DNA of 40,965 nucleotides from positions 1-40,965 of IMG/VR virus record IMGVR_UViG_3300048574_000501. The stretch is one strand, 5' to 3'. Shown here piece after piece: positions 1 to 40,965 of the stretch; position 1 is the stretch's first letter, and every line of letters starts with the position of its first letter. Source of the stretch: a virus. Lineage: Duplodnaviria > Caudoviricetes. The position numbers and the translations under genes are program-made. The notes beneath the pieces are model-generated. The model worked only from the letters and a program-made list of their open reading frames with translations. It made no database searches and was not told where the DNA came from.

Positions 1-430
1 TTGATAGAGATACTGTTTTCAGCAATCCTTGACGGCCTAAACAATTTATTCCTCCTGCTAGGCTATGTTTCAAATGTAAATTCCTTCCCTCAGCCTTTAA
101 GTTCTGAGGAGGAACTATACTATACCGAAGCATATAAAAATGGTAGTGAGGAAGCAAGAAACATTTTGATTGAGAGAAACTTAAGGCTTGTTGCACATAT
201 TGTAAAAAAATACGGTTCTTGTGGCAATGATAGCGATGACCTTATCTCGATAGGTACTATTGGTTTAATTAAAGCAATATCAACATTCAACATGGATAAG
301 GGTACACGTCTTGCAACATATGCTGCCAGATGCATAGAAAATGAAATTCTAATGCAAATTAGAGCATCTAAAAAGATACAGAATGAAGTTTCATTACAAG
401 ATCCGATTGGAGTCGACAAAGAAGGCAACG
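1..430 (+). CDS. sigK: RNA polymerase sporulation sigma factor SigK, 5' part (pro-sequence, regions 1.2-3); the unrecombined ORF reads on into attL and stops at 462
   Basis: Hydrophobic pro-peptide then [70 protein letters not shown]. Similarity ends abruptly after GNEI. Confidence 0.96.
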
Positions 431-459
431 AAATACCATCCACATGTTGTATATTAGTT
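420..459. other. attL of the sigK-intervening element
   Basis: AGAAGGcAACGAAAT (420-434) is repeated at 40677-40691 (14/15). ACATGTTGTATATTAGTT (442-459) is the exact reverse complement of 40659-40676. Confidence 0.93.
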
Positions 460-482
460 TAGATCCTTTAAAATAAAGGGTT

Positions 483-2027
483 TCAGAAATGAGAAATTTT
501 CGGATAGAGCTTGATTCTAAAGTTATCCACTTTAGCGTCAGGCTCTTTATTGTATCCAACTTTAATCAGAATAGATTTGAGAAGTAGATTTTTATCCTCG
601 GGCGAATCAATTTTATAATAGGCGTCCAATACGCTTCTTAGCATAGTGAGGTATTCGGTGCTAACTGCATTAGTAGATTTTATCTGTAGTATTTGATTTT
701 TTGATTCTCCAATAGATGATTGTAAAACTTCAAGTCGTTCTTGAATTGAGGTTGAACGCTCAGTAAAGGTGGCAACGTCATAAATACCCTGTTCAAGCAG
801 ATCAAATGTTTTTACACGTTGCTGTTCAAGGGTTTTACTTTCATTTTCCAGATTAGCAATATTTTTTTCCAGTAGAGAGAATTCCACAGTTGATTCGATG
901 TCTGTTTTTTTATTGGATGCGTCAACAAGTAGGTTATTATAATATTCCTCCAGTTCCTTCAAAATCAGTTCTTCTACACTTTTAAAAAAATTACTTTTCT
1001 GGCCGCAGTTTTTAGGGCACATTATTCTCGGGGGCTTTTTACCAACCGGGCGTTTAATCATTTTGGCTCCGCATTTGTCGCATATCAGGAGACCGGCCAA
1101 AGGGTTTGTTACTCCGTTTTCAAGCTGATAGGGAACATGGTATTTACAGGCAAGAAGCTCTTGAGCTTTATTAAATATGGATTCATCAATAATTGCAGGA
1201 TGCTTGCCTTCACTGATAATCCATTCTTCCTGAGGGCGTGTATAAACATCTCTCTTTTTCCCTGGAGTTTTACTCTTTCGGATGCATTTTTTCTTCCATA
1301 CAATTTTGCCTATATATACAGGGTTTTTAAGATAGTTGGTTATGCTTGACTTATCCCATTTTTTACCCGTATATGATTTAATACCGAGTCTATCAAGTTC
1401 ATTGCCTATTTTACTGCAGCCCATGTTCTGATTAACATACCAATCGAATATCATCTGTATTACTTTTGACTGCTCAGGATTAGGCTTTAATACTCTTGTT
1501 TTTTTGTCTATCCGGACAATATCATAGCCATATGGGGGGCGGGTGGCAATATAATTGCCTTCCATAACAGATTCTGTTCTTCCACCCTGAAGGCGTTTAT
1601 TGATCATTTTATATTCCTTGCGGCTCATAAATGCTTCAAATTCGCTGTATTCCTCGTCAAATTCGTCATTAAGGTCATATGTTTTTTTAGGAGTGATAAT
1701 TTTAGCATTGGACTTTTTAAATGTTTTAAGAATGATGCCTTGCTCTTCCATGTCGCCACGGCCAAGACGCTGTATATCCATGACAAGTACACCTTCGCAT
1801 AGACCCGCTTCAACGTCTTTTAGGACTTCAAGCATTGCTGGCCGGAAAAATAATTCTTCTCCGGAGACTAGTTCTTCATGAATTTTATGTATAGTATAGC
1901 TTTCTTCCTTGGCCAGACGCAATAAAACTTTCCGATGTCGGGCAAGGGTTTCACCCTGGCCTAGAGTTTTCTCCAACTCTTCATCGGCTCTGGATTTTCT
2001 TAAATAAATATCGACAATTAAAGGCAT
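483..2027 (-). CDS. Large serine recombinase (SpoIVCA/CisA-like integrase)
   Basis: N-terminal resolvase motif IYLRKSR (catalytic Ser), DIQRLGRGD, recombinase domain PPYGY...NPVYIG, zinc ribbon LAGLLICDKCG...C, and a coiled coil. Adjacent to attL. Confidence 0.95.
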   Translation of the reverse strand: MPLIVDIYLRKSRADEELEKTLGQGETLARHRKVLLRLAKEESYTIHKIHEELVSGEELFFRPAMLEVLKDVEAGLCEGVLVMDIQRLGRGDMEEQGIILKTFKKSNAKIITPKKTYDLNDEFDEEYSEFEAFMSRKEYKMINKRLQGGRTESVMEGNYIATRPPYGYDIVRIDKKTRVLKPNPEQSKVIQMIFDWYVNQNMGCSKIGNELDRLGIKSYTGKKWDKSSITNYLKNPVYIGKIVWKKKCIRKSKTPGKKRDVYTRPQEEWIISEGKHPAIIDESIFNKAQELLACKYHVPYQLENGVTNPLAGLLICDKCGAKMIKRPVGKKPPRIMCPKNCGQKSNFFKSVEELILKELEEYYNNLLVDASNKKTDIESTVEFSLLEKNIANLENESKTLEQQRVKTFDLLEQGIYDVATFTERSTSIQERLEVLQSSIGESKNQILQIKSTNAVSTEYLTMLRSVLDAYYKIDSPEDKNLLLKSILIKVGYNKEPDAKVDNFRIKLYPKISHF

Positions 2028-2084
2028 GTAAAAATACGCCTCCTTTCACAGAAAATTAGAAATAGATTATATAGAATTATATGT

Positions 2085-2555
2085 TTAAACAATTTTCTTA
2101 AAGACTCCTAATGGATCAAAATAAATTATATACTCATCTTTTAAATGGTATAAACCATATTTTTCTTGATAGTGTTTTATGGTATCATTAATAAAATCTT
2201 CAGTCACATCCAGAAATTGCGAGAGTTCATATCTGTTCTTGATACCGTTGTTATATGCTTTTATAAAAGCTGACAAAGGAATAAGTTTCTCATATGCCCA
2301 GTTTCTTGCTCGTTTTTCTTGCTTTCTACTTTCAGTCTTATTTTGATCTATAATATCACCATGAGAAGTAAAGTAATGCCCTAATTCTTCAGCTAAGATG
2401 CATGTTTTCTCAATTGATGTACAAGTGTATTTATTTATTCCAATTTTATTATTTTTGATAAGACCTTTTGAAGATGATTCAAATGCGACTTCTTTTACTT
2501 CTATTTCATTATTGCATGCTTCATCTAAAAGTTGTTCGTATCTCAAAATAATCAC
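2085..2555 (-). CDS. ImmA/IrrE family metallo-endopeptidase (anti-repressor)
   Basis: CILAEELGHY (HEXXH-type variant) and KQEKRARNWA. Lies between the repressor and the integrase. Confidence 0.85.
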   Translation of the reverse strand: MIILRYEQLLDEACNNEIEVKEVAFESSSKGLIKNNKIGINKYTCTSIEKTCILAEELGHYFTSHGDIIDQNKTESRKQEKRARNWAYEKLIPLSAFIKAYNNGIKNRYELSQFLDVTEDFINDTIKHYQEKYGLYHLKDEYIIYFDPLGVFKKIV

Positions 2556-2561: not shown

Positions 2562-3068
2562 TTAAAGTTTGTCCAAATCTCGTCTAACCTTTTTCTGTTC
2601 TTCTAGATCTTTTAATTTATCATTATGAGCGGCTACAAGGTAAACTTCTTTATTTTCTTTAGTATAAAATTCATTACATCTGTTGAATTCCATCTGAAGA
2701 ATAGTTTCTATAGCATGCTTGCCTTTTTCATCAAGGAAGCGATATTTATATAAAAGATTTTTTTCTGTATCAGAAAGTTTCAATTGGTTATTGTTTTCTG
2801 AAATAGATTCGGCCTCTAAGTTTTCATACATCGGAACATCATAACCCATAAGCCATACTTCATTAACTCCAAGTGCCTTACCAAGGATTGCGAGCTTATC
2901 CTGTCCTGGCTCCACAAGGCCAGAAACGTATTGACTTAAATCAGATTTATTCATTTTAACATTATACTTTTGACAATAAGGTTTTGCCATGTCTAATATA
3001 TCCACTTGTCTTAAGTTACGAGATTCCATAATTTCTTTAAGTCTATCAGAGGTACTCAATTTTTCCAA
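2562..3068 (-). CDS. XRE-family phage repressor (ImmR/CI-like); likely TTG start at 3068
   Basis: HTH (RQVDIL...KSDLSQYVSG...LGVNEVWLMG) and a C-terminal AAH motif typical of ImmA-cleaved repressors. RBS AGGTGGAG precedes TTG 3068. Confidence 0.85.
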   Translation of the reverse strand: MEKLSTSDRLKEIMESRNLRQVDILDMAKPYCQKYNVKMNKSDLSQYVSGLVEPGQDKLAILGKALGVNEVWLMGYDVPMYENLEAESISENNNQLKLSDTEKNLLYKYRFLDEKGKHAIETILQMEFNRCNEFYTKENKEVYLVAAHNDKLKDLEEQKKVRRDLDKL

Positions 3069-3130
3069 ATCATCTCCACCTTTCCAGATGAATATATCAC
3101 TTTTTGAACAAAAGTTCAATAGAAAGTTTT

Positions 3131-3214
3131 AAAAGTTAAAAAGATTTGAACTTTTTTATTGACTTAACTATAACTGGGTGGTATATTTTAATTAGTTCAA
3201 ATGAATTGAACTAA
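3131..3214. promoter_or_regulatory. Genetic switch: operators AGTTCAA-N5-TTGAACT plus a rightward sigA promoter
   Basis: Palindromes at 3131-3155 (1 mismatch) and 3192-3214 (perfect 9-bp arms). Promoter TTGACT (3159-3164)-17 bp-TATATT (3182-3187) with an extended TG. Confidence 0.75.
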
Positions 3215-3227
3215 GAAAGGGGGGGAG

Positions 3228-3458
3228 ATGGATATGGCATTTAATTACAATAAATTGCGGGGAAGAATAGTTGAAAGATTTGGTACACAATCAGCATTTG
3301 CAAAGGCCCTAGGCGTGTCAGAAAGAACTTTATCTCTGAAGCTTAATGGTAAAATCTACTTTGCTCAGGATGAAATTGTATTAGCTGCAGAACTTTTAAA
3401 AATATCAGAACCAGATATACAAATATATTTTTTTACGCAAGAAGTTCAGAGATGTTGA
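3228..3458 (+). CDS. Cro-like XRE regulator (DUF739 family)
   Basis: FNYNKLRGRIVERFGTQSAFAKALG...LKLNGK. Divergent from the repressor. Confidence 0.85.
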   Translation: MDMAFNYNKLRGRIVERFGTQSAFAKALGVSERTLSLKLNGKIYFAQDEIVLAAELLKISEPDIQIYFFTQEVQRC

Positions 3459-3462
3459 ACTT
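3442..3462. promoter_or_regulatory. Third operator copy at the end of cro
   Basis: AAGTTCAG-AGATG-TTGAACTT. Confidence 0.65.
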
Positions 3463-3555
3463 AATAACAATGAAAATGTCAAGTAAGGGAGGATCAGCAA
3501 GGATAGGAATAGTGTACAAACAGGCCTTAATAAGTATAAAAGAGGGGGTGGTTTT

Positions 3556-3723
3556 TTGGGCACTGCAGAGATTATTCCGCCCGACATCACACCGGAAGAA
3601 AACCAGAAACGAATTAGAGATCTGGAGCAAGTTCTATCAAATATCTTCAATTGCGAAATCACTGTAAGGTGGAAGACACCTGAGGAAATAGCATATGAGG
3701 GTAAAAACGAGAGAAGTTTGTAA
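3556..3723 (+). CDS. Small hypothetical protein, 55 aa (not in the ORF track)
   Basis: RBS GAGGGGGTGG then TTG. Translates as MGTAEIIPPDITPEENQKRIRDLEQVLSNIFNCEITVRWKTPEEIAYEGKNERSL. Confidence 0.6.
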   Translation: MGTAEIIPPDITPEENQKRIRDLEQVLSNIFNCEITVRWKTPEEIAYEGKNERSL

Positions 3724-3797
3724 TTTTTTTTAACCATTAAGTAGACATGCAGTTAAAAGAAGGACAAGCAAATTCATACAAAAAGGTAGGTGTAGAT

Positions 3798-4049
3798 ATG
3801 TATAGGTGGTACAGAAAAATGCAATGGAGGCTTAGCTTATTGTGGTATCGAGTAAAACTTTGGCTAGGATGGTGGTATTGCGAACATTGTGAAAAGATGC
3901 ATTCTCCATTTACAGCTAAATACGATTTTAACAATTCTGAGGAATACGAGTGTTGTAAAGGTGTTTATGATTTACCGGTTCTAAAAGCATACGAGAATGA
4001 TTCAGAGTACTTTTATGAATTAACTAAAAAACTGTATAAAGTGGGGTGA
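3798..4049 (+). CDS. Hypothetical Cys/Trp-rich protein (likely start ATG 3798)
   Basis: RBS AGGTAGGTG before MYRWYRK. Contains CEHC...H...CC. Confidence 0.55.
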   Translation: MYRWYRKMQWRLSLLWYRVKLWLGWWYCEHCEKMHSPFTAKYDFNNSEEYECCKGVYDLPVLKAYENDSEYFYELTKKLYKVG

Positions 4050-4054
4050 ACTAA

Positions 4055-4240
4055 ATGAAACACGGTAAGGTACCAACGGTAGCTCAAAAAAAACTTATTG
4101 CTGTCCACAAGTATAAAAGTACATATCTAAACCCGAATAACTGGCTAGTGATTAAGAGTCTACCCCATGTACTTGTAATAAGGCACAGGCACAACAACAC
4201 CATTATCAATATACCAAGAGGAGGTGAGGAAAATTTATAA
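4055..4240 (+). CDS. Small phage hypothetical protein
   Basis: MKHGKVPTVAQKKLI...LNPNNWLV is a recurrent pattern in Firmicute phage early genes. RBS GGGGTG. Confidence 0.7.
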   Translation: MKHGKVPTVAQKKLIAVHKYKSTYLNPNNWLVIKSLPHVLVIRHRHNNTIINIPRGGEENL

Positions 4241-4241
4241 A

Positions 4242-4391
4242 ATGTCAAAGGAGGAATTTGTAACAAAAGCAATAGCCGATCTTGCAGCTATAAACAAAAA
4301 GCATATCCGGGATGCAGATTATTATCACATGGCTGCAATTGGTAAACAAAGAAAGGCCAGACGCCGGATGAAGGCACAAAGAGCAATTTAA
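4242..4391 (+). CDS. Small basic hypothetical protein, 49 aa (not in the ORF track)
   Basis: RBS GAGGA. MSKEEFVTKAIADLAAINKKHIRDADYYHMAAIGKQRKARRRMKAQRAI fills the gap before abrB. Confidence 0.55.
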   Translation: MSKEEFVTKAIADLAAINKKHIRDADYYHMAAIGKQRKARRRMKAQRAI

Positions 4392-4418
4392 AAATAATAT
4401 TTTAGGAGGTCAAGAATT

Positions 4419-4667
4419 ATGAAATCTACAGGAATTGTAAGAAAAGTTGATGAGCTAGGAAGAATTGTTCTACCAAAGGAATTGAGGAGAACAATGGATA
4501 TTGCAGAAAAAGATGCTTTGGAAATCTATGTTGATGATTCAACAATCATTTTGAAAAAATACGAGCCTGCATGCATATTCTGCGGTAATGCAAAAGACGT
4601 ACAAGTTTATAAAGGAAAGAATATTTGCCCTGACTGCATGAAAGAACTGAAGGAGGCTAAAAAATGA
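4419..4667 (+). CDS. abrB: AbrB-family transition-state regulator
   Basis: MKSTGIVRKVDELGRIVLPKELRRT swapped-hairpin domain and a C-terminal CIFC...CPDC. RBS AGGAGG. Confidence 0.9.
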   Translation: MKSTGIVRKVDELGRIVLPKELRRTMDIAEKDALEIYVDDSTIILKKYEPACIFCGNAKDVQVYKGKNICPDCMKELKEAKK

Positions 4668-4951
4668 GGGCTACTTACAAAATATGCGGACAACCTTGGA
4701 GTGTAAGCATACGTAAAAATCTTAATAAGCCCTATGTTTGTCCAAAGTGCTCAAAAATTCAGAAAATTGCATTAATTGTTATTGGTTTTATTATTAGCTG
4801 TCTTCTGGTACCAAAACTAAATAGTATTGCAAACTATCAACGAGGATACCGAGCTCTGGGAGGAGAGATATTTGTACCGGTGCTGTACCTAGTTATAATA
4901 GCCTTCATTAAGGAAGTTTCTAATCAAAAAAAAGAAAACGCCCATCAATAA
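4664..4951 (+). CDS. Hypothetical membrane protein with a zinc-ribbon-like N-terminus
   Basis: ATGA overlap with abrB, CPKC motif, two hydrophobic segments. Confidence 0.6.
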   Translation: MRATYKICGQPWSVSIRKNLNKPYVCPKCSKIQKIALIVIGFIISCLLVPKLNSIANYQRGYRALGGEIFVPVLYLVIIAFIKEVSNQKKENAHQ

Positions 4952-5015
4952 TAAGGCGTTAAACAAAAAAAATATCAATTCCAGTATACACTGGGGAAAG
5001 AATGAGGTCAAGAGC

Positions 5016-5828
5016 ATGAAAGGTTATAAAGGATTTGACAAAAATCTGAAATGCAGAGATTTTCAGTATGAAGTTGGAAAGGACTTTGAACACGATGGAC
5101 CAGTAGAAACTTGTAATAGCGGTTTCCACTTCTGCGAAAATCCTATGGATGTGTTCAGCTATTATTCACCAGCTGATAGCCGTTTTTGTGAAGTTGAAGG
5201 TACTGGCGAGATTGACAAAAAATCAGATGAAGATAGCAAAGTTGCAGTCTCCAAACTTCATATATCTATGGAAATAGGACTGAAAGGAATTATTGAGGCT
5301 GGTGTTAAGTTTATCCTGGACAAGGTCAACTGGAAGGACGCAAAGGAATCAAACACAGGAGATCAGTCAGCAGCGACCAACACAGGAGATCAGTCAGCAG
5401 CGACCAACACAGGTTATAAGTCAGCAGCGACCAACACAGGTTATAAGTCAGCAGCGACCAACACAGGAGATCAGTCAGCAGCGACCAACACAGGTTATAA
5501 GTCAGCAGCGACCAACACAGGTAATTATTCAGCAGCGACCAACACAGGAGATCAGTCAGCAGCGACCAACACAGGAGATCAGTCAGCAGCCACTGTGGAA
5601 GGAAAGGAAAGCGTTGCTTGTGCTCTTGGTATTGATAATAAAGTCAAAGGTGCTATAGGGTGCTGGTTAGTTGTAGCTGAGTGGTTTAGAGACTCCGAAT
5701 GGGAATGGCATCGTAAAGATGTTAGATGTACTTTGATAGACGGAGAGACTATTAAGGCAGATACATGGTACAAACTCAAAGATGGTGTATTTATTGAAGT
5801 TTCAGAAGAAAGTGAGGAGAACGATTGA
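5016..5828 (+). CDS. Phage protein with internal 9-aa tandem repeats
   Basis: KGYKGFDKNLKCRDFQYEVG...GFHFCENP N-terminal domain (common in phages), repeat block, C-terminal DGETIKADTWY. Confidence 0.8.
   Translation: MKGYKGFDKNLKCRDFQYEVGKDFEHDGPVETCNSGFHFCENPMDVFSYYSPADSRFCEVEGTGEIDKKSDEDSKVAVSKLHISMEIGLKGIIEAGVKFILDKVNWKDAKESNTGDQSAATNTGDQSAATNTGYKSAATNTGYKSAATNTGDQSAATNTGYKSAATNTGNYSAATNTGDQSAATNTGDQSAATVEGKESVACALGIDNKVKGAIGCWLVVAEWFRDSEWEWHRKDVRCTLIDGETIKADTWYKLKDGVFIEVSEESEEND
5352..5594 (+). repeat. 9 x 27-bp coding tandem repeat (NTG[DQ/YK/NY]SAAT)
   Basis: Unit AACACAGGAGATCAGTCAGCAGCGACC with variants, read directly from the sequence. Confidence 0.95.
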
Positions 5829-7129
5829 TGGATACTATCAAAATAAATAAGCTAGAAATTGAAAACGTAAAGCGTGTAAAGGCTGTCAAGATTGAGCCTA
5901 CAGCAAACGGACTTACGATAGTAGGAGGTAAGAACAATCAGGGCAAGACTACGGTTATTGATTCTATCGCTTGGACTTTGGGCGGGGATAAATTCCGTCC
6001 TTCTGATGCCCAGCGTGAAGGCTCGGTTATTCCTCCAACATTAAATATCACTTTGAGTAACGGTTTAGTAGTTGAGAGAAAAGGTAAAAACAGCGATTTA
6101 AAGGTAACTGATCCTACAGGTACAAAAGCCGGCCAGCAGCTCCTAAATGAATTTGTTGAGCAGTTGGCGCTTGATCTTCCAAAATTCATGAATTCATCCA
6201 ACAAGGAAAAGGCTGAAACGCTTCTCAAAATCATCGGAGCTAGTGCTCAACTTGCTGAATATGAGCGCCAGGAGAAGGAACTGTATAACAGACGTCTTGC
6301 TATTGGTCAGATTGCTGATCAGAAAAAGAAGTTTGCTAAAGAGCAGCCATATTATACTGATGCCCCAAAGGTACCGGTATCTGCATCAGAATTAATCAAA
6401 CAGCAGCAGGATATACTGGCCCGGAACGGTGAGAACCAGAAGAAACGTCAAAATCTTAAATATATACAGGATCAGAGGCAAAGATTAATAGATCAGGAAA
6501 ATGAACTTATTGCAAGACTGGCAGAAGTACGACAGAAACTTGAGCTTAATAGTAAAGACCTAGAAATCGCTGAGAAATCAGCTTTGGAACTGTATGACGA
6601 ATCAACGGCAGAACTTGAATCCAATATTGCCAACATTGAGGAACTCAATCGTAAGGTCAGAGCCAACTTAGATAAAGATAAAGCCGATGATGATGCTCTG
6701 GACTATGCAAATCAGTACAATGCTCTCACCACTCAAATTGACAATGTAAGGCAATCAAAAATCGATTTGCTGAAGAATGCGAATCTTCCATTGCCTGGAC
6801 TATCTGTCGAGGATGGAGAGCTTACCTATAACGGTAAGAAGTGGGACTGCATGTCTGGATCCGAACAGCTCAGGGTTGCAGTAGCAATTGTTCGTAAACT
6901 TAACCCAAAGTGCGGATTTGTGTTGATGGACAAGCTTGAACAGATGGACTTGGATACTCTTCAAGAATTTGGACAATGGCTTGAGCAAGAAGGTCTCCAG
7001 GTGATTGCAACAAGGGTAAGCACTGGTGATGAATGCAGCATCATTATAGAAGATGGTTACTCTGCAAATGAAAAGCCAAGTGAATCTATTACAGATAACG
7101 GTCAGAAATGGAAAGCAGGTGAGTTTTAG
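5825..7129 (+). CDS. SMC/Rad50-like AAA ATPase
   Basis: IENVKRV, Walker A GKNNQGKT, long coiled coil, signature MSGSEQ, Walker B FVLMD. Confidence 0.85.
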   Translation: MMDTIKINKLEIENVKRVKAVKIEPTANGLTIVGGKNNQGKTTVIDSIAWTLGGDKFRPSDAQREGSVIPPTLNITLSNGLVVERKGKNSDLKVTDPTGTKAGQQLLNEFVEQLALDLPKFMNSSNKEKAETLLKIIGASAQLAEYERQEKELYNRRLAIGQIADQKKKFAKEQPYYTDAPKVPVSASELIKQQQDILARNGENQKKRQNLKYIQDQRQRLIDQENELIARLAEVRQKLELNSKDLEIAEKSALELYDESTAELESNIANIEELNRKVRANLDKDKADDDALDYANQYNALTTQIDNVRQSKIDLLKNANLPLPGLSVEDGELTYNGKKWDCMSGSEQLRVAVAIVRKLNPKCGFVLMDKLEQMDLDTLQEFGQWLEQEGLQVIATRVSTGDECSIIIEDGYSANEKPSESITDNGQKWKAGEF

Positions 7130-7131
7130 AA

Positions 7132-8259
7132 ATGGAAATAGCTAGAGGCGTTATTAAAAGCGCACAAAAGATTGTAATTTATGGCCCTGAGGGCATAGGA
7201 AAGTCAACCTTTGCGTCCATGTTTCCGAATGCCTTATTTATCGACACAGAAGGCAGCACAAAATACATGGATGTTGCACGTCTACCGAAGCCATGTAGCT
7301 GGAGCATGCTTATGGATGATGTCCGTCACGTTTATGTACATCCAGAAGTATGTAACACGCTGGTAATTGACACAGCTGACTGGGCTGAAAAATTATGTTC
7401 TGAAGATCTATGTGCAAAGTCACAGAAAGCAGGAATTGAAGATTTTGGCTATGGTAAAGGTTATGTTTATCTTGTAGAAGACTTCGGGAAGCTTTTGAAC
7501 ATGCTTGAAGAAATTGTGAACATGGGAGTCAATGTAGTCTTTACAGCGCATGCACAAATGAGGAAGTTTGAGCAGCCCGATGAAATGGGTGCTTATGACC
7601 GGTGGGAAATGAAATTGCAGAAGAAAACTGCTCCGCTGCTAAAGGAATGGGCCGATGCAGTATTGTTTGTTAACTACCAAACATATGTTGTGAATGTTGA
7701 TGGACAGGGAACATCAAAAGGCAAGAACAAAGCTCAGGGCGGCAGAAGAGTAATGTATACCAGTCATCACCCTTGCTGGGATGCAAAGAACAGATACAAC
7801 CTGCCTCCAGATGTTGACTTTGACTATTCTGTGATTGCTCCTTATATACCTGTGAAGGGTTCGGCAGTCCCTGTCCAATACGTCACAACTCAGCCAGTAC
7901 AGCAACAGAATGTTCTTGCGCCTGTAGTTTCTGATGATAAGTCGGTTAATGAACCAATTCAGCAGCAGCTACCTATGGAATCTCCGCAACAACTACCACC
8001 TTCGGAACATCAAACAACTCCAGCAGTAACCAATGAAGAGCTGTCTGATGTTCCAAAAGCACTGGCAGCACTGATGAAAGAAAAACAAGTAGCTCTAAAA
8101 GAAATCCAGGAGGCAGTAGCATATAAAGGATATTTCCCTGCAGATACGCCATTTAAAGCATACCCAAATGAATTCGTATCAGGTGTACTTATAGCAGCGT
8201 GGCCACAAGTTTTTACAATTATTGAACTATTAAGAAGCAAAGAAATAGCACCATTCTAA
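7132..8259 (+). CDS. Sak4-like (AAA_24) ssDNA-annealing ATPase
   Basis: YGPEGIGKS, FIDTEGS, LVIDT, GYGKGY, AKNR. Confidence 0.85.
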   Translation: MEIARGVIKSAQKIVIYGPEGIGKSTFASMFPNALFIDTEGSTKYMDVARLPKPCSWSMLMDDVRHVYVHPEVCNTLVIDTADWAEKLCSEDLCAKSQKAGIEDFGYGKGYVYLVEDFGKLLNMLEEIVNMGVNVVFTAHAQMRKFEQPDEMGAYDRWEMKLQKKTAPLLKEWADAVLFVNYQTYVVNVDGQGTSKGKNKAQGGRRVMYTSHHPCWDAKNRYNLPPDVDFDYSVIAPYIPVKGSAVPVQYVTTQPVQQQNVLAPVVSDDKSVNEPIQQQLPMESPQQLPPSEHQTTPAVTNEELSDVPKALAALMKEKQVALKEIQEAVAYKGYFPADTPFKAYPNEFVSGVLIAAWPQVFTIIELLRSKEIAPF

Positions 8260-8281
8260 AAAATATGAGGAGATCAAATTT

Positions 8282-8764
8282 ATGAATAATGAACGTGAAC
8301 TTGGATGGAATGAAGTAATTGAAAATGATAGCCCGGATTTTGTTACACTTCCAGAAGGTGATTATAATTTTGAAGTAACAGAGTTTGAAAGGGCAAGGCA
8401 TAACGGTAGCGATAAGCTACCAGCATGTAACAAAGCAATAATACATATCAAAATTGAAGCACCTGAAGGAGTCACCACTATTAAACACAACCTGTTCCTT
8501 CATACCAAAACCGAAGGTATGCTGTGTGCATTCTTTACAGCGATTGGTCAAAGAAAAAAAGGTGAGCGCGCCACTATGAACTGGAATGCAGTCGTTGGTT
8601 CAAAGGGTAAGTGTAAGGTTGGTATCAGAACATGGAAGACTGATGACGGTCGTGAAATGACTTCAAATGAGATAAAAAGGTTTTATGAACCGGATGCAAA
8701 TAATCAAGCATCTGGTAGTAATCAACCTGCAGCGCAAAAGACATTTGAGGCTGGGAGGTTTTAG
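8282..8764 (+). CDS. Phage ssDNA-binding protein (DUF669-like)
   Basis: LPEGDYNFEV start, position after Sak4, C-terminal Phe. Confidence 0.75.
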   Translation: MNNERELGWNEVIENDSPDFVTLPEGDYNFEVTEFERARHNGSDKLPACNKAIIHIKIEAPEGVTTIKHNLFLHTKTEGMLCAFFTAIGQRKKGERATMNWNAVVGSKGKCKVGIRTWKTDDGREMTSNEIKRFYEPDANNQASGSNQPAAQKTFEAGRF

Positions 8765-8766
8765 TT

Positions 8767-10377: not shown

Positions 10378-10398
10378 CATTTGAAAGGAGTTAAAGGT

Positions 10399-12894: not shown

Positions 12895-12911
12895 GGGGAG
12901 GAACTTAGGCA

Positions 12912-30551: not shown

Positions 30552-30563
30552 GGAGGAACAGAA

Positions 30564-30923: not shown

Positions 30924-30936
30924 GGGGGGAAAATCA

Positions 30937-32925
30937 ATGTATAATGTGTCGGACTTGTTTAAAACTTATATAAAAAATTTTGACCGGATGTTTGAAGCAC
31001 AGGTTGATGTGAATGGTGATATGTACACAGGTACAGATATAGTTGAGTTTAATATTGAAGATAGTATCCAATCCGGTGATGATTTTACGTTAGGTACAGC
31101 AATATCCTCTATCCTGAACATTTCTATTCGTACAGTTGAAACTATACCAGCTGGTGCTAAGATTATTCCATATATCCGTTTAAACGGATCAAGTGGAACA
31201 ACTGAATGGCTAAAGCTAGGGGAATATTATGTTGATTCAAGAGTAATGAATAACCGAGTATGGCAGTTTACTTGCTATGACAGGCTTATATTTGGTCAGG
31301 TTGAGTATATATCAAATTTAAACTATCCAACTACTATGCAAGCTGTATGGGATGAGGCATGTGGATTGTTAGGAACCACATCAGATGTAAGCGTGGTAAT
31401 TAACCCTGATTATACTTTTCAAGTAGCTCCAACAGGTCACATGCTGCGTGAAGTTTTAGGATATATAGCAGCTGCTCATGTATCTAGTGTAAAAATGACT
31501 AAAGATGGAACGATTGGTTGGGCTACTTTTAAAGCTTCATCTACTCCAGTGGATAAAATTACTGCTTCAGATTATAGCTCAGCGCCACAAACTAACCCAT
31601 CTAAAAAGTTTACTCGTATAGTTGTAAAAAGTGGTTCTGATGCTGAAGCTACCGAAATCGAAGTGGGTGTAGGTGAAGAAGCTAATACATTAACTCTAAT
31701 TAACCCATACATAACGCAATCTATGCTAAACGATATGTACACTGTATTTAATGGGTTTAGATACATACCATTTACAATGGATTGGCGGTGCTTTCCTAAT
31801 ATAGAGGTTGGGGATACAATAGAGGCCGAAATGTTCACAGTACTAACTTGGATTGAAGCAACTATGCCTTGGCAGACAGCAGATTTCCCATGGCGTGATT
31901 TGCCTACATTTTGCACAGTTGTACTTCGGAATAAAATCTCCTATAAAGGTGGTTTAAGAGCAGTTTCCTCGGCTTCGTCTACCTCTACCCAACAAAGTGA
32001 ACTGACTTTTAAAGGTACGATTCGTAATCAGCTTGAGCAGTTGGATACCAACACGCTGAAAGAAGGTAAAAACTATTATGGAGTAACAATGCACCGGGAT
32101 TACGGGATTAAAGTCGATAGCACTTCCGGTAGCTCGGCTCTTTTTAATGGCGATCAACTATCCATGCAGGCAAATGGGGTTGATTGCATTTACTTTAACA
32201 CCTTAACAGGAAAATATTGCATTAACGGCACACTGGAAGCGGTTGACGGCCAATTTAGCGGCACTGTGTACGCCGAAAAGATAGATACCTCTAATGCAAA
32301 AATTAAAGCGGCTCAAATTGAGACATTGCATATTGGCCCTAACGGTAATGTCGTACTTGACTCTACAGCCACAATCAGTTGGGGACAAATTACTAGTGTT
32401 CCAGATTTGGTTACAGGAACACAACTTACTACTAGACTAGGGCAAGATTATGTAGTTACGGGTAAGATCTATGCCAACCAAATAAACGGGCAAATAGCAA
32501 ACTTGACGGATAGCGTGTCTATAGGTAGTACTGTATCTGCAACGGCTAAAACATTATCTTTTTACAATAGTAGCGGGAACGAAGCCAAACTCTACATGGA
32601 ACCAGGAGGCAGTTTAAATTTAATTTCATGGCAATCGGTAAATGTACCAGGCCAAGCAGGAGTTAATTTATACGGAGGGCCTTTAAACAATATACAAAGC
32701 ATTCAACTCTACAACTATGATAGTGCAGCAGGTTCATATCTGATTAAGGTTAAAGGTGCAACTAAATTTTACGATCAGATTGCCTTTTTTGGAGGAACTC
32801 CAATCGCGCAGAAAACAGCTTCTTATTTAGCGAGTAATGCGACGCAAGCAGATATTATTACCAAGGTTAATGGTATCTTAGGTATTCTAAGCCAGAGCAA
32901 TTATAATTTAGTTTACGTAACATAG
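30937..32925 (+). CDS. Tail tip / baseplate hub (Tal-like) protein
   Basis: Position and motifs LGEYYV, CYD, NPY, EVGDTI; beta-rich C-terminus. Confidence 0.7.
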   Translation: MYNVSDLFKTYIKNFDRMFEAQVDVNGDMYTGTDIVEFNIEDSIQSGDDFTLGTAISSILNISIRTVETIPAGAKIIPYIRLNGSSGTTEWLKLGEYYVDSRVMNNRVWQFTCYDRLIFGQVEYISNLNYPTTMQAVWDEACGLLGTTSDVSVVINPDYTFQVAPTGHMLREVLGYIAAAHVSSVKMTKDGTIGWATFKASSTPVDKITASDYSSAPQTNPSKKFTRIVVKSGSDAEATEIEVGVGEEANTLTLINPYITQSMLNDMYTVFNGFRYIPFTMDWRCFPNIEVGDTIEAEMFTVLTWIEATMPWQTADFPWRDLPTFCTVVLRNKISYKGGLRAVSSASSTSTQQSELTFKGTIRNQLEQLDTNTLKEGKNYYGVTMHRDYGIKVDSTSGSSALFNGDQLSMQANGVDCIYFNTLTGKYCINGTLEAVDGQFSGTVYAEKIDTSNAKIKAAQIETLHIGPNGNVVLDSTATISWGQITSVPDLVTGTQLTTRLGQDYVVTGKIYANQINGQIANLTDSVSIGSTVSATAKTLSFYNSSGNEAKLYMEPGGSLNLISWQSVNVPGQAGVNLYGGPLNNIQSIQLYNYDSAAGSYLIKVKGATKFYDQIAFFGGTPIAQKTASYLASNATQADIITKVNGILGILSQSNYNLVYVT

Positions 32926-32933
32926 GAGGAAAT

Positions 32934-33185
32934 ATGGCAAAACAGACGGTTTTAAATAAAAAATATGAAATAAAAGATGGTATGGCAACTATTATTGAAA
33001 CGGTTGAAAGTATTTTGAATAAAGAGGATTTACAGAATCAGAAGTCACAATATGTACAAAAACAGGCTCAGTTAACAAGTCAAATAACCGGCTTGCAGGT
33101 ACAATATAAAGCCTGTTCTTCCGCTATTGCGGAAATAGATAAAATTATAGAAGAAATAGATTTGCAAGAAGAAAAGGAGGGCTAA
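32934..33185 (+). CDS. Small coiled-coil tail-associated protein
   Basis: RBS AGGAGG and a heptad pattern. Confidence 0.6.
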   Translation: MAKQTVLNKKYEIKDGMATIIETVESILNKEDLQNQKSQYVQKQAQLTSQITGLQVQYKACSSAIAEIDKIIEEIDLQEEKEG

Positions 33186-33188
33186 CTG

Positions 33189-33896
33189 GTGACTATTAAT
33201 AAGTATTGTAATCTATATGGACAGAATAAAATTAGTGAGGATTATACTAAGATTAATAGCGGTTTTTATACAGTGGAAACTGATATATCTGGAGTACTAG
33301 CCTCCGAAACCGCTAGAGAAGAAGCAGAAACACAAAGAGAAGTGGCAGAAGCTAACCGTGTACTTAGATACGAAAATACTAAGCATTATAACGCTTATAA
33401 TAGCACTATGACATACCACAAAAACAACATTGTGAGCTATTTTGGCTCATCATTTATGTTGGTTGTAGACGAATCCGTGGGCAATGCACCCCCCGAGTAT
33501 CCAACTACATATAACAGCTATTGGGCTTTGGTAGGTCAGAAAGGTGACAAGGGCGAAACCGGAACCGTACCTAATATAACCGTAGGGACTGTTACTACTT
33601 TACCATCTGGCAATTCTGCTACAGTCACTCGACAATCTGGTAGCCCGGACGAAGCCCCTGTATTTGATTTTAGTATACCAAGAGGCATTGACGGAGATGG
33701 TGCCGGAGACATGACAAAAGCCGATTATGATAGTAATGCAGACGGTGTTGTAAATGATTCAGACAAGCTAGGCGGGCAGTTGCCTGGGTATTATGCATCC
33801 GCTAGTAATATAGCGACTTTGGAAGATAAAATTATTACAAGCATATCCTATCCGACTATAAATAAGGCAGGACAAAAATTTTACAGAATAGTGTAA
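33189..33896 (+). CDS. Tail fibre / upper baseplate protein
   Basis: YHKNNIVSYFGSSF...YW carbohydrate-binding-like motif, collagen triplets KGDKGETG, GDMTKADYD, DSDKLGG. Confidence 0.7.
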   Translation: MTINKYCNLYGQNKISEDYTKINSGFYTVETDISGVLASETAREEAETQREVAEANRVLRYENTKHYNAYNSTMTYHKNNIVSYFGSSFMLVVDESVGNAPPEYPTTYNSYWALVGQKGDKGETGTVPNITVGTVTTLPSGNSATVTRQSGSPDEAPVFDFSIPRGIDGDGAGDMTKADYDSNADGVVNDSDKLGGQLPGYYASASNIATLEDKIITSISYPTINKAGQKFYRIV

Positions 33897-36817: not shown

Positions 36818-36850
36818 GTTATGCAAAAATACAACTAAGGAGTGAGAAAC

Positions 36851-37480
36851 ATGGTAGAAAAGTTTTTAGAGTTAGCAAAAAGTAAAATAGGTTGTGGTTA
36901 TGTGTTTGGCTCGCAAGGACAGACAATGACGATATCGTTACTGAATTCACTCATAAAAACCTTTGGGAAAAGTCATTATGAGTTTACTGATTCTGTCGGG
37001 AATGTAAACGCAAACAAATGGCTTGGTAAGCAGTGCTTCGACTGTTCAGGACTGGTCGTTTGGACGCTGCAGCAGCTTGGAATCGTCAAGACCGAACAGG
37101 ACTATACAGCAGCTGTTTTGTACAGCAGCCTATGCGTACGAATTACAAAGGAACAGCTAGTGCCGGGAGATCTTGTATTTATAAAAGGTAGCACCGGCAT
37201 AATTAATCATGTTGGCATCTATGCCGGGAACAGCAAAACAATTGAGGCAATCGGCACCCGGAAGGGGGTAGTACAGGGAGACTCGGTAAGATTCAATGTT
37301 TATGGTAGATTAAAGGTGTTCAAGGATGAGATTGAAAAGCCTGTTGATGAACTGGCCGAAGCTGTAAAGTTCTTAGCCCAGAAGTCCGGAATTGATTTTA
37401 CAACATGGTATAAGACAGCAAAAGATGTAAAGTACCTGGATAAGTGTTTTATAAAGATAGCAAATGCTTTTAATGAATAA
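36851..37480 (+). CDS. Endolysin, NlpC/P60 (C40) peptidase
   Basis: GCGYVFG, FDCSGLV (catalytic Cys), PGDLVF, HVGIY. Adjacent to the holin. Confidence 0.85.
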   Translation: MVEKFLELAKSKIGCGYVFGSQGQTMTISLLNSLIKTFGKSHYEFTDSVGNVNANKWLGKQCFDCSGLVVWTLQQLGIVKTEQDYTAAVLYSSLCVRITKEQLVPGDLVFIKGSTGIINHVGIYAGNSKTIEAIGTRKGVVQGDSVRFNVYGRLKVFKDEIEKPVDELAEAVKFLAQKSGIDFTTWYKTAKDVKYLDKCFIKIANAFNE

Positions 37481-37499
37481 TTTTAAGGAGGAAGAATGA

Positions 37500-37967
37500 A
37501 TGGAAAATTTAAATGCGTTTAAAGTAACTATTACTGCAATAGCCGCAGGCATATCGTCCTGGCTTGGATGGTTCGGTTGGCTGTGGGTGGCATTTGTAGT
37601 TTGCCTTTTTGTAGACTGGCTGACCGGATCGGCAGCTGCGGCAAAACGGGGGGAGTGGAGTTCTAAAAAGGGTCATGAAGGTATATGGCATAAAGCCGGT
37701 TGCATAATTGTCGTACTTGTGGCCGCTGTACTCGATGTGGTTATAGGTACCATTATAAATAACATACCGAGCATATCCTTACCGTTTACTTATACAGTAT
37801 TGCTTTGTCCAATAGCTCTAGTATGGTACATACTTACCGAGCTAGGCAGCATAACTGAAAATGCCGGTAAAATGGGAGCGCCTATACCGGCATTTTTGAC
37901 CAAAGCAATATCTTTATTTAAGGGGGCCGTTAATTCGACTGGGGACAAATTAACTGACATAAAGTAA
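37500..37967 (+). CDS. Phage holin (toxin-secretion/phage-lysis family)
   Basis: DWLTG...WSSK..G..HK...ELGSITENAGKMGAPIP and TM segments. Confidence 0.9.
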   Translation: MENLNAFKVTITAIAAGISSWLGWFGWLWVAFVVCLFVDWLTGSAAAAKRGEWSSKKGHEGIWHKAGCIIVVLVAAVLDVVIGTIINNIPSISLPFTYTVLLCPIALVWYILTELGSITENAGKMGAPIPAFLTKAISLFKGAVNSTGDKLTDIK

Positions 37968-38012: not shown

Positions 38013-38041
38013 TTGACACGAACATATGTTCGATATAAAAT
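38013..38041 (+). promoter_or_regulatory. SigA promoter with a LexA (SOS/Cheo) box in the spacer
   Basis: TTGACA (38013-38018), CGAACATATGTTCG (38019-38032), TAAAAT (38036-38041), 17-bp spacing. Confidence 0.85.
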
Positions 38042-38058
38042 GTCAGTAGGGTGATTTT

Positions 38059-38283
38059 ATGGTTGATTATTTTCTCAAAGCGTCACTTGAACGCAATATA
38101 ATTATTAACATTATTTATCTGAAGGATAACGAAATTACTGAAAGAAACGTTAAGGTATTCAGTATCGAAAACGGCAATATCAAGGCCTTTTGTTTTCTAA
38201 GAAATCAAAACAGGATATTCAAAATTGAGAATATTCTTTCTGCAGGTTATGTAAGAAATAATCATATGAAATTAGCTAAATAA
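38059..38283 (+). CDS. Small stand-alone WYL-like domain protein
   Basis: IIY...ITERNV...AFCFLRNQNRIFKIENI matches the WYL pattern. Confidence 0.7.
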   Translation: MVDYFLKASLERNIIINIIYLKDNEITERNVKVFSIENGNIKAFCFLRNQNRIFKIENILSAGYVRNNHMKLAK

Positions 38284-38346
38284 AGGAATTAACTTATACA
38301 GAGCGGGGTATCTTTGCTCTGATTTTTATTTTTTGGAGGATATATT

Positions 38347-39102
38347 ATGAATAGTTTTATAGGATGGATAGGCGGGAAAAAGCTTTTAAGAAAAGAAATT
38401 GTCAGTAGATTTCCCGAAAAAATTGACCGATATATTGAAGTTTTCGGAGGAGCTGCATGGGTTTTATTTCAGAAAGAAAAGCATGCAGAACTTGAGATAT
38501 ATAATGATTATAACAGTGACCTGGTTAATTTATACCGGTGTATAAAATATCACTGTCAGGAGCTTCAGCGTGAGCTTTCATTTATGCTTAATTCCAGAGA
38601 AATCTTTGAAGACTTCAAAGTTCAGTATAATACTCAAGGCATGACCGACATACAAAGAGCGGCAAGATTCTTTATGCTGATAAAGACGAGCTATGGTTCA
38701 GATGCTAGAACATATGGCTGCGTTAAGAAAGACACATCAGTTACTATAGAGTACCTGAAACGAATCCAGGAAAGACTCTCGAAGGTAGTAGTTGAGAACA
38801 AGGATTTTGAAAACTTGATTGAGGTTTACGACAGGCCGACTGCGCTGTTTTATCTTGACCCACCTTACTTCGGAACCGAGAAGTATTATCAGGCTCAATT
38901 TACACAGAATGATCATGAAAGACTCTACAATGTACTGAAGAATATAAAAGGGAAGTTCATACTTTCTTATAATAACTGTGACTACATATGGGAACGTTAT
39001 GAGAATTTCCATATTGAGTCAATTGAAAGAAATAACAGTCTGGTAGCAAGGTATGCTAAAAAGGATAAGCGATATGGAGAGGTCATTATAAGAAATTATT
39101 AA
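38347..39102 (+). CDS. DNA adenine methyltransferase (Dam/D12 class), orphan
   Basis: WIGGK, EVFGGAAWV (motif I), YND, FYLDPPY (motif IV). Confidence 0.9.
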   Translation: MNSFIGWIGGKKLLRKEIVSRFPEKIDRYIEVFGGAAWVLFQKEKHAELEIYNDYNSDLVNLYRCIKYHCQELQRELSFMLNSREIFEDFKVQYNTQGMTDIQRAARFFMLIKTSYGSDARTYGCVKKDTSVTIEYLKRIQERLSKVVVENKDFENLIEVYDRPTALFYLDPPYFGTEKYYQAQFTQNDHERLYNVLKNIKGKFILSYNNCDYIWERYENFHIESIERNNSLVARYAKKDKRYGEVIIRNY

Positions 39103-39176
39103 TTTAAAAGTCCTTGCTTGTAATATTTTACAATATGTAGTAGATTATTGTTATAAAAACATAAGGGGTTGGAGAA

Positions 39177-40631
39177 ATGGCTAAATGTAGAAGATGCAAT
39201 AAAAGTGGCCTATTCTTAAAAGTAAATGCAGGAGGATTTTGTAAGGAATGCGAAAGAATTCTCGTAATTGAAGCGGCAGAAAAGAGGATAAATGGATCAA
39301 CTAATAAGTGTAATAGATTCCCAGAGAAAAAAGAAGTCTCTATAGATAATGAACTTCAATTACTTGAAAAGCAGGTTATAGAAAAAAAGCAAGAACTTCA
39401 ACATTTAGACTATGAAATAATAAAATATGATAAAAATATCACAGCACATAGTAATAAACTTAAGAAAATGCGTGAGGCATTCAATAGGGTAGATTACACC
39501 ATTAAGAATTTTTATGATAACAATCAAATTCCGAATAATGGCGATATAATTAATGATGAAATGAATGAGCTCCTTGGACCGGCGGTTGAATTAAAACTCC
39601 ACTGTATGGATGTAAAGAGCCTTCGTAAGTTATACAATAAAAACTATAAGGACATACAAGAAACTCTTTCTAAATATCAAAGCAGGTACACAACTAAAAC
39701 AAATGCTGCCATATATAAATTGATGGTTGTTGCTTTGGAAGCTGAACTCCAGAATGTTTTATATAATATAAATTACGGAAAGCTGGATACTGCCATTGAA
39801 AACATTAAAAAAATTACATCAAAATATTTGTACGTAGCAACAGACGGAAATCAGAACATAGCACCTACGATGATAAAATTTATAGGAGAAATAGAATACC
39901 TATTCATTGAAGCAGTAAAGATTGAATATGAATATTATGTCCAGAAGGAGCGCATTAAAGAAGAACAACGGGCAATCAGAGAACAAATGCGGCAAGAAGC
40001 AACTGAAAGAAAGATATTAGAACAGCAGCGCAAACAGGTTGAAAAAGAAGAAGAAAAATACAAAAATGAGATCTCGAGTATAGCTGAACAGATCTCAAAT
40101 ACTGATGATAGTAATAAAATTATGCAATTAAAAATACGTATTGAGCAACTTCAAAATCAACTACTTGATGTTGAACATAAAAAAGAAGAAATTCTAAGCA
40201 GGCAAAATGGAAAAGCTGGATATATTTATATCATTAGTAACATGGGTTCATTTGGTAATAACGTATTTAAAGTCGGAATGACAAGAAGGCTTGACCCACA
40301 AGATAGAGTAAATGAGCTAGGTGATGCTTCGGTGCCGTTTCCATTTGATGTTCATTCGTTTATTTTCTCAGATGATGCTGTCAGTTTAGAACAAAATATG
40401 CATAAAATACTTAAAAACAACAGGGTAAACAGAGTTAATTTAAGAAAAGAATTCTTTAAAGCTACGATAGATGAATTAGAGGAGTTAGTATATTCACTTG
40501 AACCTTCGGCTGAATTTAATAGAACTGTGCTTGCTGAACAGTATAACCAAAGTCTTTCAATTGATGAAGTACCCGATGATGGAGAAACAGTTAACTTAGA
40601 TGATGATGAATTTAACGATTATGAGGTATAA
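39177..40631 (+). CDS. DUF4041 / T5orf172 (GIY-YIG-like) domain protein
   Basis: N-terminal CxxC..CxxC, coiled coils, KEEQRAIREQMRQE, GYIYIISNMGSFG..VFKVGMTRR..PQDRVNELGDASVPFPFDVH, RKEFF. Confidence 0.85.
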   Translation: MAKCRRCNKSGLFLKVNAGGFCKECERILVIEAAEKRINGSTNKCNRFPEKKEVSIDNELQLLEKQVIEKKQELQHLDYEIIKYDKNITAHSNKLKKMREAFNRVDYTIKNFYDNNQIPNNGDIINDEMNELLGPAVELKLHCMDVKSLRKLYNKNYKDIQETLSKYQSRYTTKTNAAIYKLMVVALEAELQNVLYNINYGKLDTAIENIKKITSKYLYVATDGNQNIAPTMIKFIGEIEYLFIEAVKIEYEYYVQKERIKEEQRAIREQMRQEATERKILEQQRKQVEKEEEKYKNEISSIAEQISNTDDSNKIMQLKIRIEQLQNQLLDVEHKKEEILSRQNGKAGYIYIISNMGSFGNNVFKVGMTRRLDPQDRVNELGDASVPFPFDVHSFIFSDDAVSLEQNMHKILKNNRVNRVNLRKEFFKATIDELEELVYSLEPSAEFNRTVLAEQYNQSLSIDEVPDDGETVNLDDDEFNDYEV

Positions 40632-40658
40632 CATAAAATAAATAAAATTTATAAAAAG

Positions 40659-40691
40659 AACTAATATACAACATGTAGAAGGTAACGAAAT
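40659..40691. other. attR of the sigK-intervening element
   Basis: AACTAATATACAACATGT inverted-repeat arm followed by the AGAAGGtAACGAAAT direct repeat. Confidence 0.93.
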
Positions 40692-40965
40692 TACATTAAT
40701 TGACTTGATTAGCAATGACTCTGAGTCTGTGGTGGATGAGGTAGAGCTTAAAATGCAGGTTAAAAAGCTATACAGCAAAATGAAGGGAACCTTAAAAAAC
40801 AGAGAAAAGGTAGTACTGGAATTAAGGTATGGTTTACTTAACGGATCAAGTAAAACTCAGCGAGAAATAGCTAAAATGCTTGGAATTTCCAGATCTTACG
40901 TATCAAGGATTGAAAAGAAAGCAATTAAAAAATTAAGCAAAGAATTAAAACCTGAAGGCTGCTGA
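40688..40965 (+). CDS. sigK: SigK 3' part (region 4 HTH)
   Basis: EITLIDLISND...REKVVLELRYGL...KTQREIAKMLGISRSYVSRIEKKA. In frame with the 5' part after excision. Confidence 0.96.

What the first reader, a model, noticed from the sequence alone, without database searches (positions are those of the whole stretch)
1..40965. sigK split by a near-complete 40-kb prophage: a skin-like developmental DNA rearrangement
Seen: removing 431-40687 (40,257 bp) joins 1-430 to 40688-40965 into a 708-bp ORF, a 235-aa pro-SigK reading [21 protein letters not shown]. Known: in Bacillus subtilis (skin/SpoIVCA) and Clostridioides difficile (skinCd), a serine recombinase excises a sigK-intervening element in the mother cell, and those elements are not known to produce virions. 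Inference: here almost every virion and lysis module is still present. The host would need this phage's integrase to complete sporulation, and the phage would need an excision mode uncoupled from lysis. That would make it an early stage of phage-to-switch domestication.
Basis: partly seen in the sequence, partly recalled or inferred. Interest (0 to 1): 0.92.

Follow-up and report, generated by a model that had tools for sequence, protein, structure and literature searches.

The report
Whole prophage splitting sporulation gene sigK

Summary
Observation confirmed. Removing 431-40687 rebuilds a 235-aa SigK, 229/235 identical to an uninterrupted relative. The join is the centre of a clean serine-integrase attP, and a near-full siphovirus gene set lies inside. 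The claimed novelty fails: Clostridium perfringens phage PhiS63 (2012) is a functional phage at this same sigK site, Alicyclobacillus phage MMB025 (2026) also sits in sigK, and SPbeta already shows excision without virions during sporulation. This scan also found the arrangement on other DNA. Added here: (1) an unnoticed 55-aa gene behind cro is a homologue of the C. difficile directionality factor CD1234. It is kept in 11 of 11 shrunken elements, is predicted to bind the integrase (0.75 against 0.03), and carries a sigma-E-like promoter motif like that of CD1234. (2) One distal tail gene is frameshifted, so the phage may already be non-infectious. (3) In the host's likely genus, 26 of 36 genomes have sigK in pieces, and this site holds both full prophages and 4-5 kb remnants. 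Excision, sporulation and virion production were not tested, and the host genome is not available. Verdict: new member of a known kind.

The parts
1..430 (+). sigK 5' part (N-terminal extension that likely is the pro-sequence, region 2), ending in the G-N-E codons
420..459 (.). attL: 15-bp near-duplicate 420-434, predicted crossover GA at 430-431, 18-bp phage arm 442-459
483..2027 (-). large serine integrase, 514 aa, Ser12, zinc-ribbon cysteines 316/319/337/341; 50% identical to the PhiS63 integrase, 52% to C. tetani site-A integrases
2085..2555 (-). ImmA/IrrE-type metalloprotease (likely anti-repressor)
2562..3119 (-). CI-like repressor
3134..3461 (.). three copies of a 19-bp palindrome (3134-3152, 3194-3212, 3443-3461), likely repressor operators; the third lies at the end of cro, before the RDF candidate
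   Evidence: pattern defined from these sites; 4 of 100 shuffles reached 3 matches
3228..3458 (+). Cro-like HTH protein, first gene of the early operon
3509..3532 (+). sigma-E-like promoter motif (ATA-N18-ATA with ACAA in the spacer), same layout as the mapped CD1234 promoter region
3556..3723 (+). candidate recombination directionality factor, 55 aa, pI 4.6, CD1234 family; no Pfam-type family found in PHROGs or NCBIfam
3747..17343 (+). early/replication module: AbrB-like, Sak4, helicase, ParB-like, primase, RusA, and a likely late activator at 16915-17343
15145..15394 (.). direct and inverted repeats after the primase gene, likely the replication origin
17727..33896 (+). terminase, portal, minor head, scaffold, major capsid, connectors, major tail, chaperones, tape measure, distal tail, tail and fibre-base genes; core genes full length against L164
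33962..36300 (+). distal tail/fibre-type gene in two ORFs (487 + 290 aa), frameshifted at about 35385-35400; one protein of 467-1024 aa in the 8 homologues aligned
36842..37967 (+). NlpC/P60 endolysin (36842-37480) and holin (37500-37967)
38019..40631 (+). accessory genes: LexA-box-like palindrome 38019-38032 before a 74-aa WYL-like ORF, adenine methyltransferase, PD-Lambda-1-like defence protein
40659..40691 (.). attR: 18-bp phage arm 40659-40676, near-duplicate 40677-40691, predicted crossover GA at 40687-40688
40688..40965 (+). sigK 3' part (region 4)

Best explanation
This is a near-complete temperate siphophage of the PhiS63 type inserted in sigK, and its serine integrase together with a CD1234-like 55-aa partner likely cuts it out in the sporulating mother cell to rebuild sigK. 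Shown: the split gene, the att sites, the gene set, the CD1234 homology and the tail frameshift. Inferred step 1: the integrase is made with the repressor operon and needs the partner to excise, as CD1231 needs CD1234. Inferred step 2: the partner gene has two inputs, read-through from the cro promoter on induction and its own sigma-E-type promoter in the mother cell, as SPbeta sprB has. Inferred step 3: in sporulation the repressor stays bound, so excision happens without a full lytic cycle and the spore keeps the prophage. Inferred step 4: the tail frameshift would impair infectious particles but not excision, which would be a first step of decay.
For: Join, att arms and crossover. Same site as PhiS63: its 10-nt core at nt 427 matches 40682-40691 at 9/10, and the integrases are 50% identical. 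The small ORF family is in 11 of 11 loci that held the whole stretch from integrase to sigK 3' half. A profile of it hit 115 of 163 integrase loci, 12 of them seeds, and 0 of 80 capsid loci. A profile built without the window, its three closest kin or C. difficile hit the window ORF (E 7e-9) and the 72-aa C. difficile ORF (E 1e-7). That 72-aa ORF is CD1234: the paper's primer IMV720 equals the 19 nt before its start codon in L125/L126. Complex model of integrase 290-514 with the ORF: score 0.75, best of 3 controls 0.03; the mark was reached by 116 of 157 solved complexes and 2 of 215 mismatched pairs (rough here, own alignments); runs agree in at least 86% of contacts, partner pLDDT at least 78. 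dN 0.09, dS 1.5 against L001. Strict promoter motif in 15 of 30 sigK-adjacent upstream regions, including the window and CD1234, and only twice in the whole window. No second intact sigK in 5 of 5 related genomes with split sigK.
Against: No experiment and no reads. The host genome is not held, so a second sigK or an inability to sporulate is not excluded. The motif was defined after seeing these sequences, so its shuffle control (mean 0.09, max 3) is partly circular. It is absent from 15 of 30 sigK-adjacent regions, present in 9 of 42 loci of unknown target, and by eye not matched before the PhiS63 or C. tetani-type homologues. No SpoIIID site like that of CD1234 lies near the ORF. No terminator follows the ORF, so sigma-E transcription could run into replication genes. 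The frameshift could be an assembly error, and the tail protein's role is unknown (no PDB match).
Confidence: 0.7

Rival explanations
1. An ordinary prophage that uses sigK only as a landing site. The small protein acts only in lytic induction, the upstream motif is not a working promoter, and the lysogen sporulates poorly or relies on chance excision or another sigK.
For: The ORF sits in the early lytic operon right behind cro. 0 of 30 loci of a related 82-aa group carry the motif. Sporulation-linked excision has not been shown for PhiS63 or MMB025. The host genome is unseen.
Against: The same motif, at the same spacing, precedes the ORF in 4-5 kb remnants that have lost cro and all lytic genes (L005, L006, L256, L257) and precedes CD1234, whose sigma-E promoter is mapped. 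sigK is single-copy in 5 of 5 relatives checked.
Confidence: 0.13
2. Excision in sporulation is real but not uncoupled: the sigma-E transcript reads through into the replication and late-activator genes, so the mother cell also replicates the phage or makes particles.
For: The ORF is upstream of the whole replication module and no terminator was found after it. SPbeta's lack of particles is explained by its genes lacking sporulation promoters, which need not hold for a gene inside the early operon.
Against: Remnants at the same site keep only integrase, ORF and motif, so excision needs no lytic genes. Early lysis would cost the spore that carries the prophage (inference).
Confidence: 0.12
3. 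The phage is fully infectious, like PhiS63; the tail frameshift is an assembly error, or the two pieces still work or are dispensable. The excision mechanism would be as in the best explanation, with no decay.
For: All other structural genes compared are full length and show long-term purifying selection against L164. The second piece has its own TTG start 2 nt after the stop. The closest capsid relative lacks this gene and has another fibre.
Against: All 8 homologues aligned run through the break as one protein, and about six residues are missing there, which fits a deletion of about 25 nt between short repeats rather than a one-base slip. 137 of 150 homologues are 400 aa or longer.
Confidence: 0.25
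4. The layout is an assembly chimera of a phage contig and a sigK gene.
For: No reads were available to check the junctions.
Against: Perfect 18-bp arms symmetric about the join. The same junction context follows related integrases in other genomes.
Confidence: 0.02

Closest known systems
Clostridium perfringens phage PhiS63 (Kim et al. 2012, PMC3442830; passages read)
   Same: Inducible siphovirus in sigK at the same codons (core 9/10 identical), integrase opposite to sigK and 50% identical, host SigK with pro-sequence; it also carries an unannotated 43-aa homologue of the small ORF in its early region (L002 2243-2407).
   Different: Other host family, 33.6 kb, other lysin type. PhiS63 particles are proven; here one tail gene is frameshifted and nothing is tested. 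The strict promoter motif is not matched by eye in PhiS63.
skinCd of Clostridioides difficile, CD1231 plus CD1234 (Serrano et al. 2016, PMC5025042; passages and four primer rows read)
   Same: Same site region, integrase about 47-48% identical, homologous small factor, same promoter layout.
   Different: skinCd is a 14.6-kb remnant in the other orientation, and its SigK has no pro-sequence. Here the factor still sits in a phage early operon behind cro.
SPbeta in spsM of Bacillus subtilis (Abe et al. 2014, PMC4191935; passages read)
   Same: Active prophage in a mother-cell gene; directionality factor driven by both a stress route and a mother-cell promoter; excision without particles in sporulation; remnants in relatives.
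   Different: Other target gene, integrase about 30% identical (SPbeta-like phages); the target here is the sigma factor itself.
Alicyclobacillus phage MMB025 (PMC13141910; passages read) and C. tetani site-A prophages (PMC5553647; passages read)
   Same: Large prophages in sigK; MMB025 is infectious; C. tetani integrases are 52% identical.
   Different: MMB025 is a 105-kb contractile-tailed phage with a different core; C. tetani site-A particles were not linked by electron microscopy.
skin of B. subtilis, SpoIVCA plus Skr (PMC6957869; passages read)
   Same: Serine-recombinase element splitting sigK.
   Different: Different site in sigK, defective, and the factor gene skr overlaps the recombinase gene.

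Membership tests
sigK-intervening (skin) elements | sigK in two parts that join in frame to a full SigK | tested here: met
sigK-intervening (skin) elements | SpoIVCA-like large serine recombinase at an edge of the element | tested here: met
   feature as stated in bioRxiv 10.1101/2022.02.25.481979
sigK-intervening (skin) elements | attL/attR with a short shared core and inverted arms | tested here: met
sigK-intervening (skin) elements | cognate directionality factor | tested here: met
   by homology to CD1234 and a complex model only; activity not assayed
sigK-intervening (skin) elements | mother-cell (sigma-E/SpoIIID) control of excision | tested here: inconclusive
   sigma-E-like motif found (post hoc); no SpoIIID site of the CD1234 type nearby
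sigK-intervening (skin) elements | [quoted passage not shown] | not testable with these tools
   no runs listed
sigK-intervening (skin) elements | the split copy is the only sigK | not testable with these tools
   record holds only the provirus; true in 5 of 5 relatives
PhiS63-type functional sigK phages | insertion at the G-N-E-I codons near nt 427 by a related integrase | tested here: met
PhiS63-type functional sigK phages | complete, unbroken virion and lysis gene set | tested here: inconclusive
   all modules present but one distal tail gene frameshifted; most early genes checked only by profile coverage
PhiS63-type functional sigK phages | inducible infectious particles | not testable with these tools
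   needs a culture
B. subtilis-site skin (SpoIVCA/Skr) | insertion at the B. subtilis site with skr overlapping the recombinase gene | tested here: not met
   the site is the PhiS63/skinCd one, which the papers call different from that of skinBs; the factor here is a separate gene 1.5 kb away

The most novel reading that the evidence does not exclude
CD1234 is the relic of an early-operon gene of a large family of sigK phages that acquired an internal sigma-E promoter. This element is caught at its first crippling mutation, and one genus holds the whole series at one attB: 40-kb and 33.5-kb prophages and 4-5 kb remnants with the same integrase, factor and promoter. Because the factor lies upstream of the replication genes with no terminator, the phage would need its own, undescribed way of keeping sporulation-time excision from starting lysis.
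Probability: 0.3. Interest if true: 0.5.

Novelty: new member of a known kind. Interest (0 to 1): 0.27.

Why it matters
The arrangement itself is known, so the finding is not surprising. Its use is practical. The papers on PhiS63 and MMB025 both leave open whether a functional sigK phage excises during sporulation and how. This locus names a candidate directionality factor, promoter and crossover, so the question becomes testable with a plasmid recombination assay and a promoter fusion. It also gives a candidate integrase-factor pair and a family profile that finds factors missed by annotation, including one in PhiS63.

Tried and rejected
Sequencing runs: none was listed for 1-6000, so no reads were laid; this is no evidence either way. 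The 74-aa ORF at 38059-38283 was first considered as the factor and dropped: it is WYL-like, follows a LexA-box-like palindrome, and had no homologue in the loci held then. The second strict motif hit at 15277 lies in the origin-like repeats. The sigma-70 promoter and terminator scan of 1900-6000 was at chance level (15 against 14.4; 2 against 2.4). The CD1234 SpoIIID site gave 20 matches against 18.5 expected, none near the factor. A search for a recalled SpoIIID consensus found no paper; the passages read of PMC517825 did not spell it out, so no SpoIIID claim is made. No PDB relative for the tail protein and no convincing one for the factor. The Atlas gave no result for the tail homologue. 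The hosts and target of the 82-aa group (L127-L163) were not identified. The P0130 row was misaligned and is not used. One paper on regulated gene integrity, recalled by DOI, is not held; it may already list such sigK elements. Supplements of bioRxiv 10.1101/2022.02.25.481979 (Table S7, Fig. S4) were not seen and may bear on which genes skin elements share.
Full report
Observation. The record is a 40,965-base provirus that starts at the sigK start codon and ends at its stop; no other host DNA is held. Joining 1-430 to 40688-40965 gives 708 bp and 235 aa. The halves fit the SigK model end to end (positions 10-140 and 141-226), and the product is 229/235 identical to an uninterrupted relative. 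A 15-bp near-duplicate (14/15) marks both ends. Perfect 18-bp inverted arms at 442-459 and 40659-40676, the only non-self pair of that length in the window, put the centre of attP on the GA at 430-431 / 40687-40688.

The element. From the left, on the minus strand: a 514-aa large serine integrase, an ImmA-type protease and a CI-like repressor. On the plus strand: cro, a replication module, a likely late activator, terminase, head, connector and tail genes, an NlpC/P60 lysin and a holin, then accessory genes. Terminase, portal, capsid, connector and tail-tube genes are full length against the closest capsid relative L164 and show low dN with high dS; that reflects long-term history, not present function. 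One gene is broken. The ORFs 33962-35425 and 35428-36300 are one protein in all 8 homologues aligned, with the frame change at about 35385-35400 and about six residues missing. I infer a deletion of about 25 nt between short repeats. The family has weak matches to virion and tail proteins and lies after the fibre-base gene; whether it is essential is unknown.

Host and spread. The nearest named SigK is from Ruminiclostridium herbifermentans (91% over the 5' part). I searched the 36 genomes of the genus that also holds L031, titled R. cellobioparum. By my reading of the listed matches (14 were not listed): 6 have sigK whole, 18 are cut at an upstream site near residue 115, 1 at this site only, 7 at both (5 with all three pieces listed), and 4 are unclear. 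Eight of the 36 carry an integrase at least 66% identical. At this site G025 holds a second full prophage of about 33.5 kb with different head genes, while G004, G005, G013 and G015 hold remnants of about 4.4-5.4 kb. In 5 of 5 genomes checked with split sigK there was no second intact copy. A split sigK is thus the rule in this group.

The excision partner. In 11 of 11 loci that held the stretch from integrase to sigK 3' half, a small ORF was kept on the opposite strand (picked by eye). Its homologue in the window is 3556-3723, 55 aa, right behind cro. A profile hit 115 of 163 integrase loci (12 were seeds) and 0 of 80 capsid loci. A held-out profile hit both the window ORF and a 72-aa ORF in C. 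difficile skin loci. The latter is CD1234, because the published 5' primer equals the 19 nt before its start in L125/L126. CD1234 is the proven directionality factor of skinCd and is under sigma-E and SpoIIID control (PMC5025042). PhiS63 has an unannotated 43-aa homologue. A complex model of integrase 290-514 with the ORF scored 0.75 against a best control of 0.03; the mark was reached by 116 of 157 solved and 2 of 215 mismatched pairs, roughly so with my own alignments; contacts agree to at least 86% and partner pLDDT is at least 78. The model supports binding and does not show it. The predicted contact is with the integrase's last strand (501-514) and nearby helices. No convincing PDB relative of the ORF was found.

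The promoter. An ATA-N18-ATA motif with ACAA in the spacer lies at 3509-3532. The same layout precedes CD1234 where its sigma-E promoter was mapped. The strict form was in 15 of 30 sigK-adjacent upstream regions, 9 of 42 of unknown target, 0 of 30 of a related 82-aa group, and 2 of 51 window genes; it occurs twice in the window. I defined it after seeing these sequences, so it is a lead and not a test. Against it: half of the sigK-adjacent regions lack it, it is not matched by eye in PhiS63, no CD1234-type SpoIIID site is near, and no terminator follows the ORF.

How it likely works. Integration needs the integrase alone and excision needs the factor (shown for CD1231/CD1234; inferred here). 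On DNA damage the factor would be made from the cro transcript. In the mother cell it would be made from its own sigma-E promoter while the repressor stays on its operators (three candidate sites), so sigK is rebuilt and the spore keeps the prophage. SPbeta works this way. How read-through into the replication genes is limited is not explained by anything I found.

Comparison with what is known. PhiS63 is called the first functional phage in sigK; its core at nt 427 matches this one at 9/10, precise excision was shown, and its sporulation phenotype was left open. MMB025 is a second. C. tetani has large prophages there. A survey lists split sigK in 15 species including R. cellulolyticum, 2.6-48 kb, and found no gene but the recombinase shared by all. 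I read passages of these papers, not whole texts. I found no paper extending CD1234 to a family or reporting a doubly split sigK, in nine searches of the open library, which misses most subscription journals. Earlier notes of this scan report a whole prophage in sigK, a small conserved partner, and doubly split sigK on other DNA; these are leads, not support.

Verdict. Real, well supported, and a new member of a known kind. The candidate factor, promoter and size series make a known open question easy to test, which earns a modest score of 0.27.

Noticed in passing
G004, G005, G013, G015, G025; also G006, G007, and L001 11560-11700: sigK is cut twice, near residues 115 and 143, by two unrelated serine-recombinase elements, leaving a middle piece of about 30 codons.
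   Followed up: partly
L002 2243-2407 (-): PhiS63 has an unannotated 43-aa ORF of the CD1234 family in its early region, a candidate for its directionality factor.
   Followed up: partly
window 39177-40631 (+): PD-Lambda-1-like anti-phage protein (E 1e-81) next to attR, after an adenine methyltransferase.
   Followed up: no
window 38019-38283 (+): Perfect palindrome resembling a Gram-positive LexA box (consensus recalled) inside a sigma-A-like promoter, before a 74-aa WYL-like ORF; likely SOS-controlled.
   Followed up: partly
window 4419-4667 (+): AbrB/MazE-type regulator in the early operon, 73-79% identical in two related prophages; a phage copy of a possible transition-state regulator.
   Followed up: no
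window 5016-5828 (+): DUF7666 protein with a run of 11-residue tandem repeats.
   Followed up: no
window 21339-23021 (+): The minor head protein has about 115 extra C-terminal residues compared with L164 and is followed by a 59-aa Cys-rich ORF, as in L179; it looks like a toxin-immunity-type tip (inference).
   Followed up: no
window 3724-3790 and the matching stretch of L001: The non-coding DNA right after the factor gene is conserved between the two otherwise different prophages and forms no hairpin; a possible regulatory site that limits read-through.
   Followed up: no
L127-L163 (viral loci): A group of about 30 prophages with a 46%-identical integrase and an 82-aa member of the same factor family but no sigma-E-like motif; target gene unknown.
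   Followed up: partly
L018, L008, L022, L095: Related integrases lie next to a sigK 3' half in the skinCd orientation, so this site has been entered in both orientations in several lineages.
   Followed up: no
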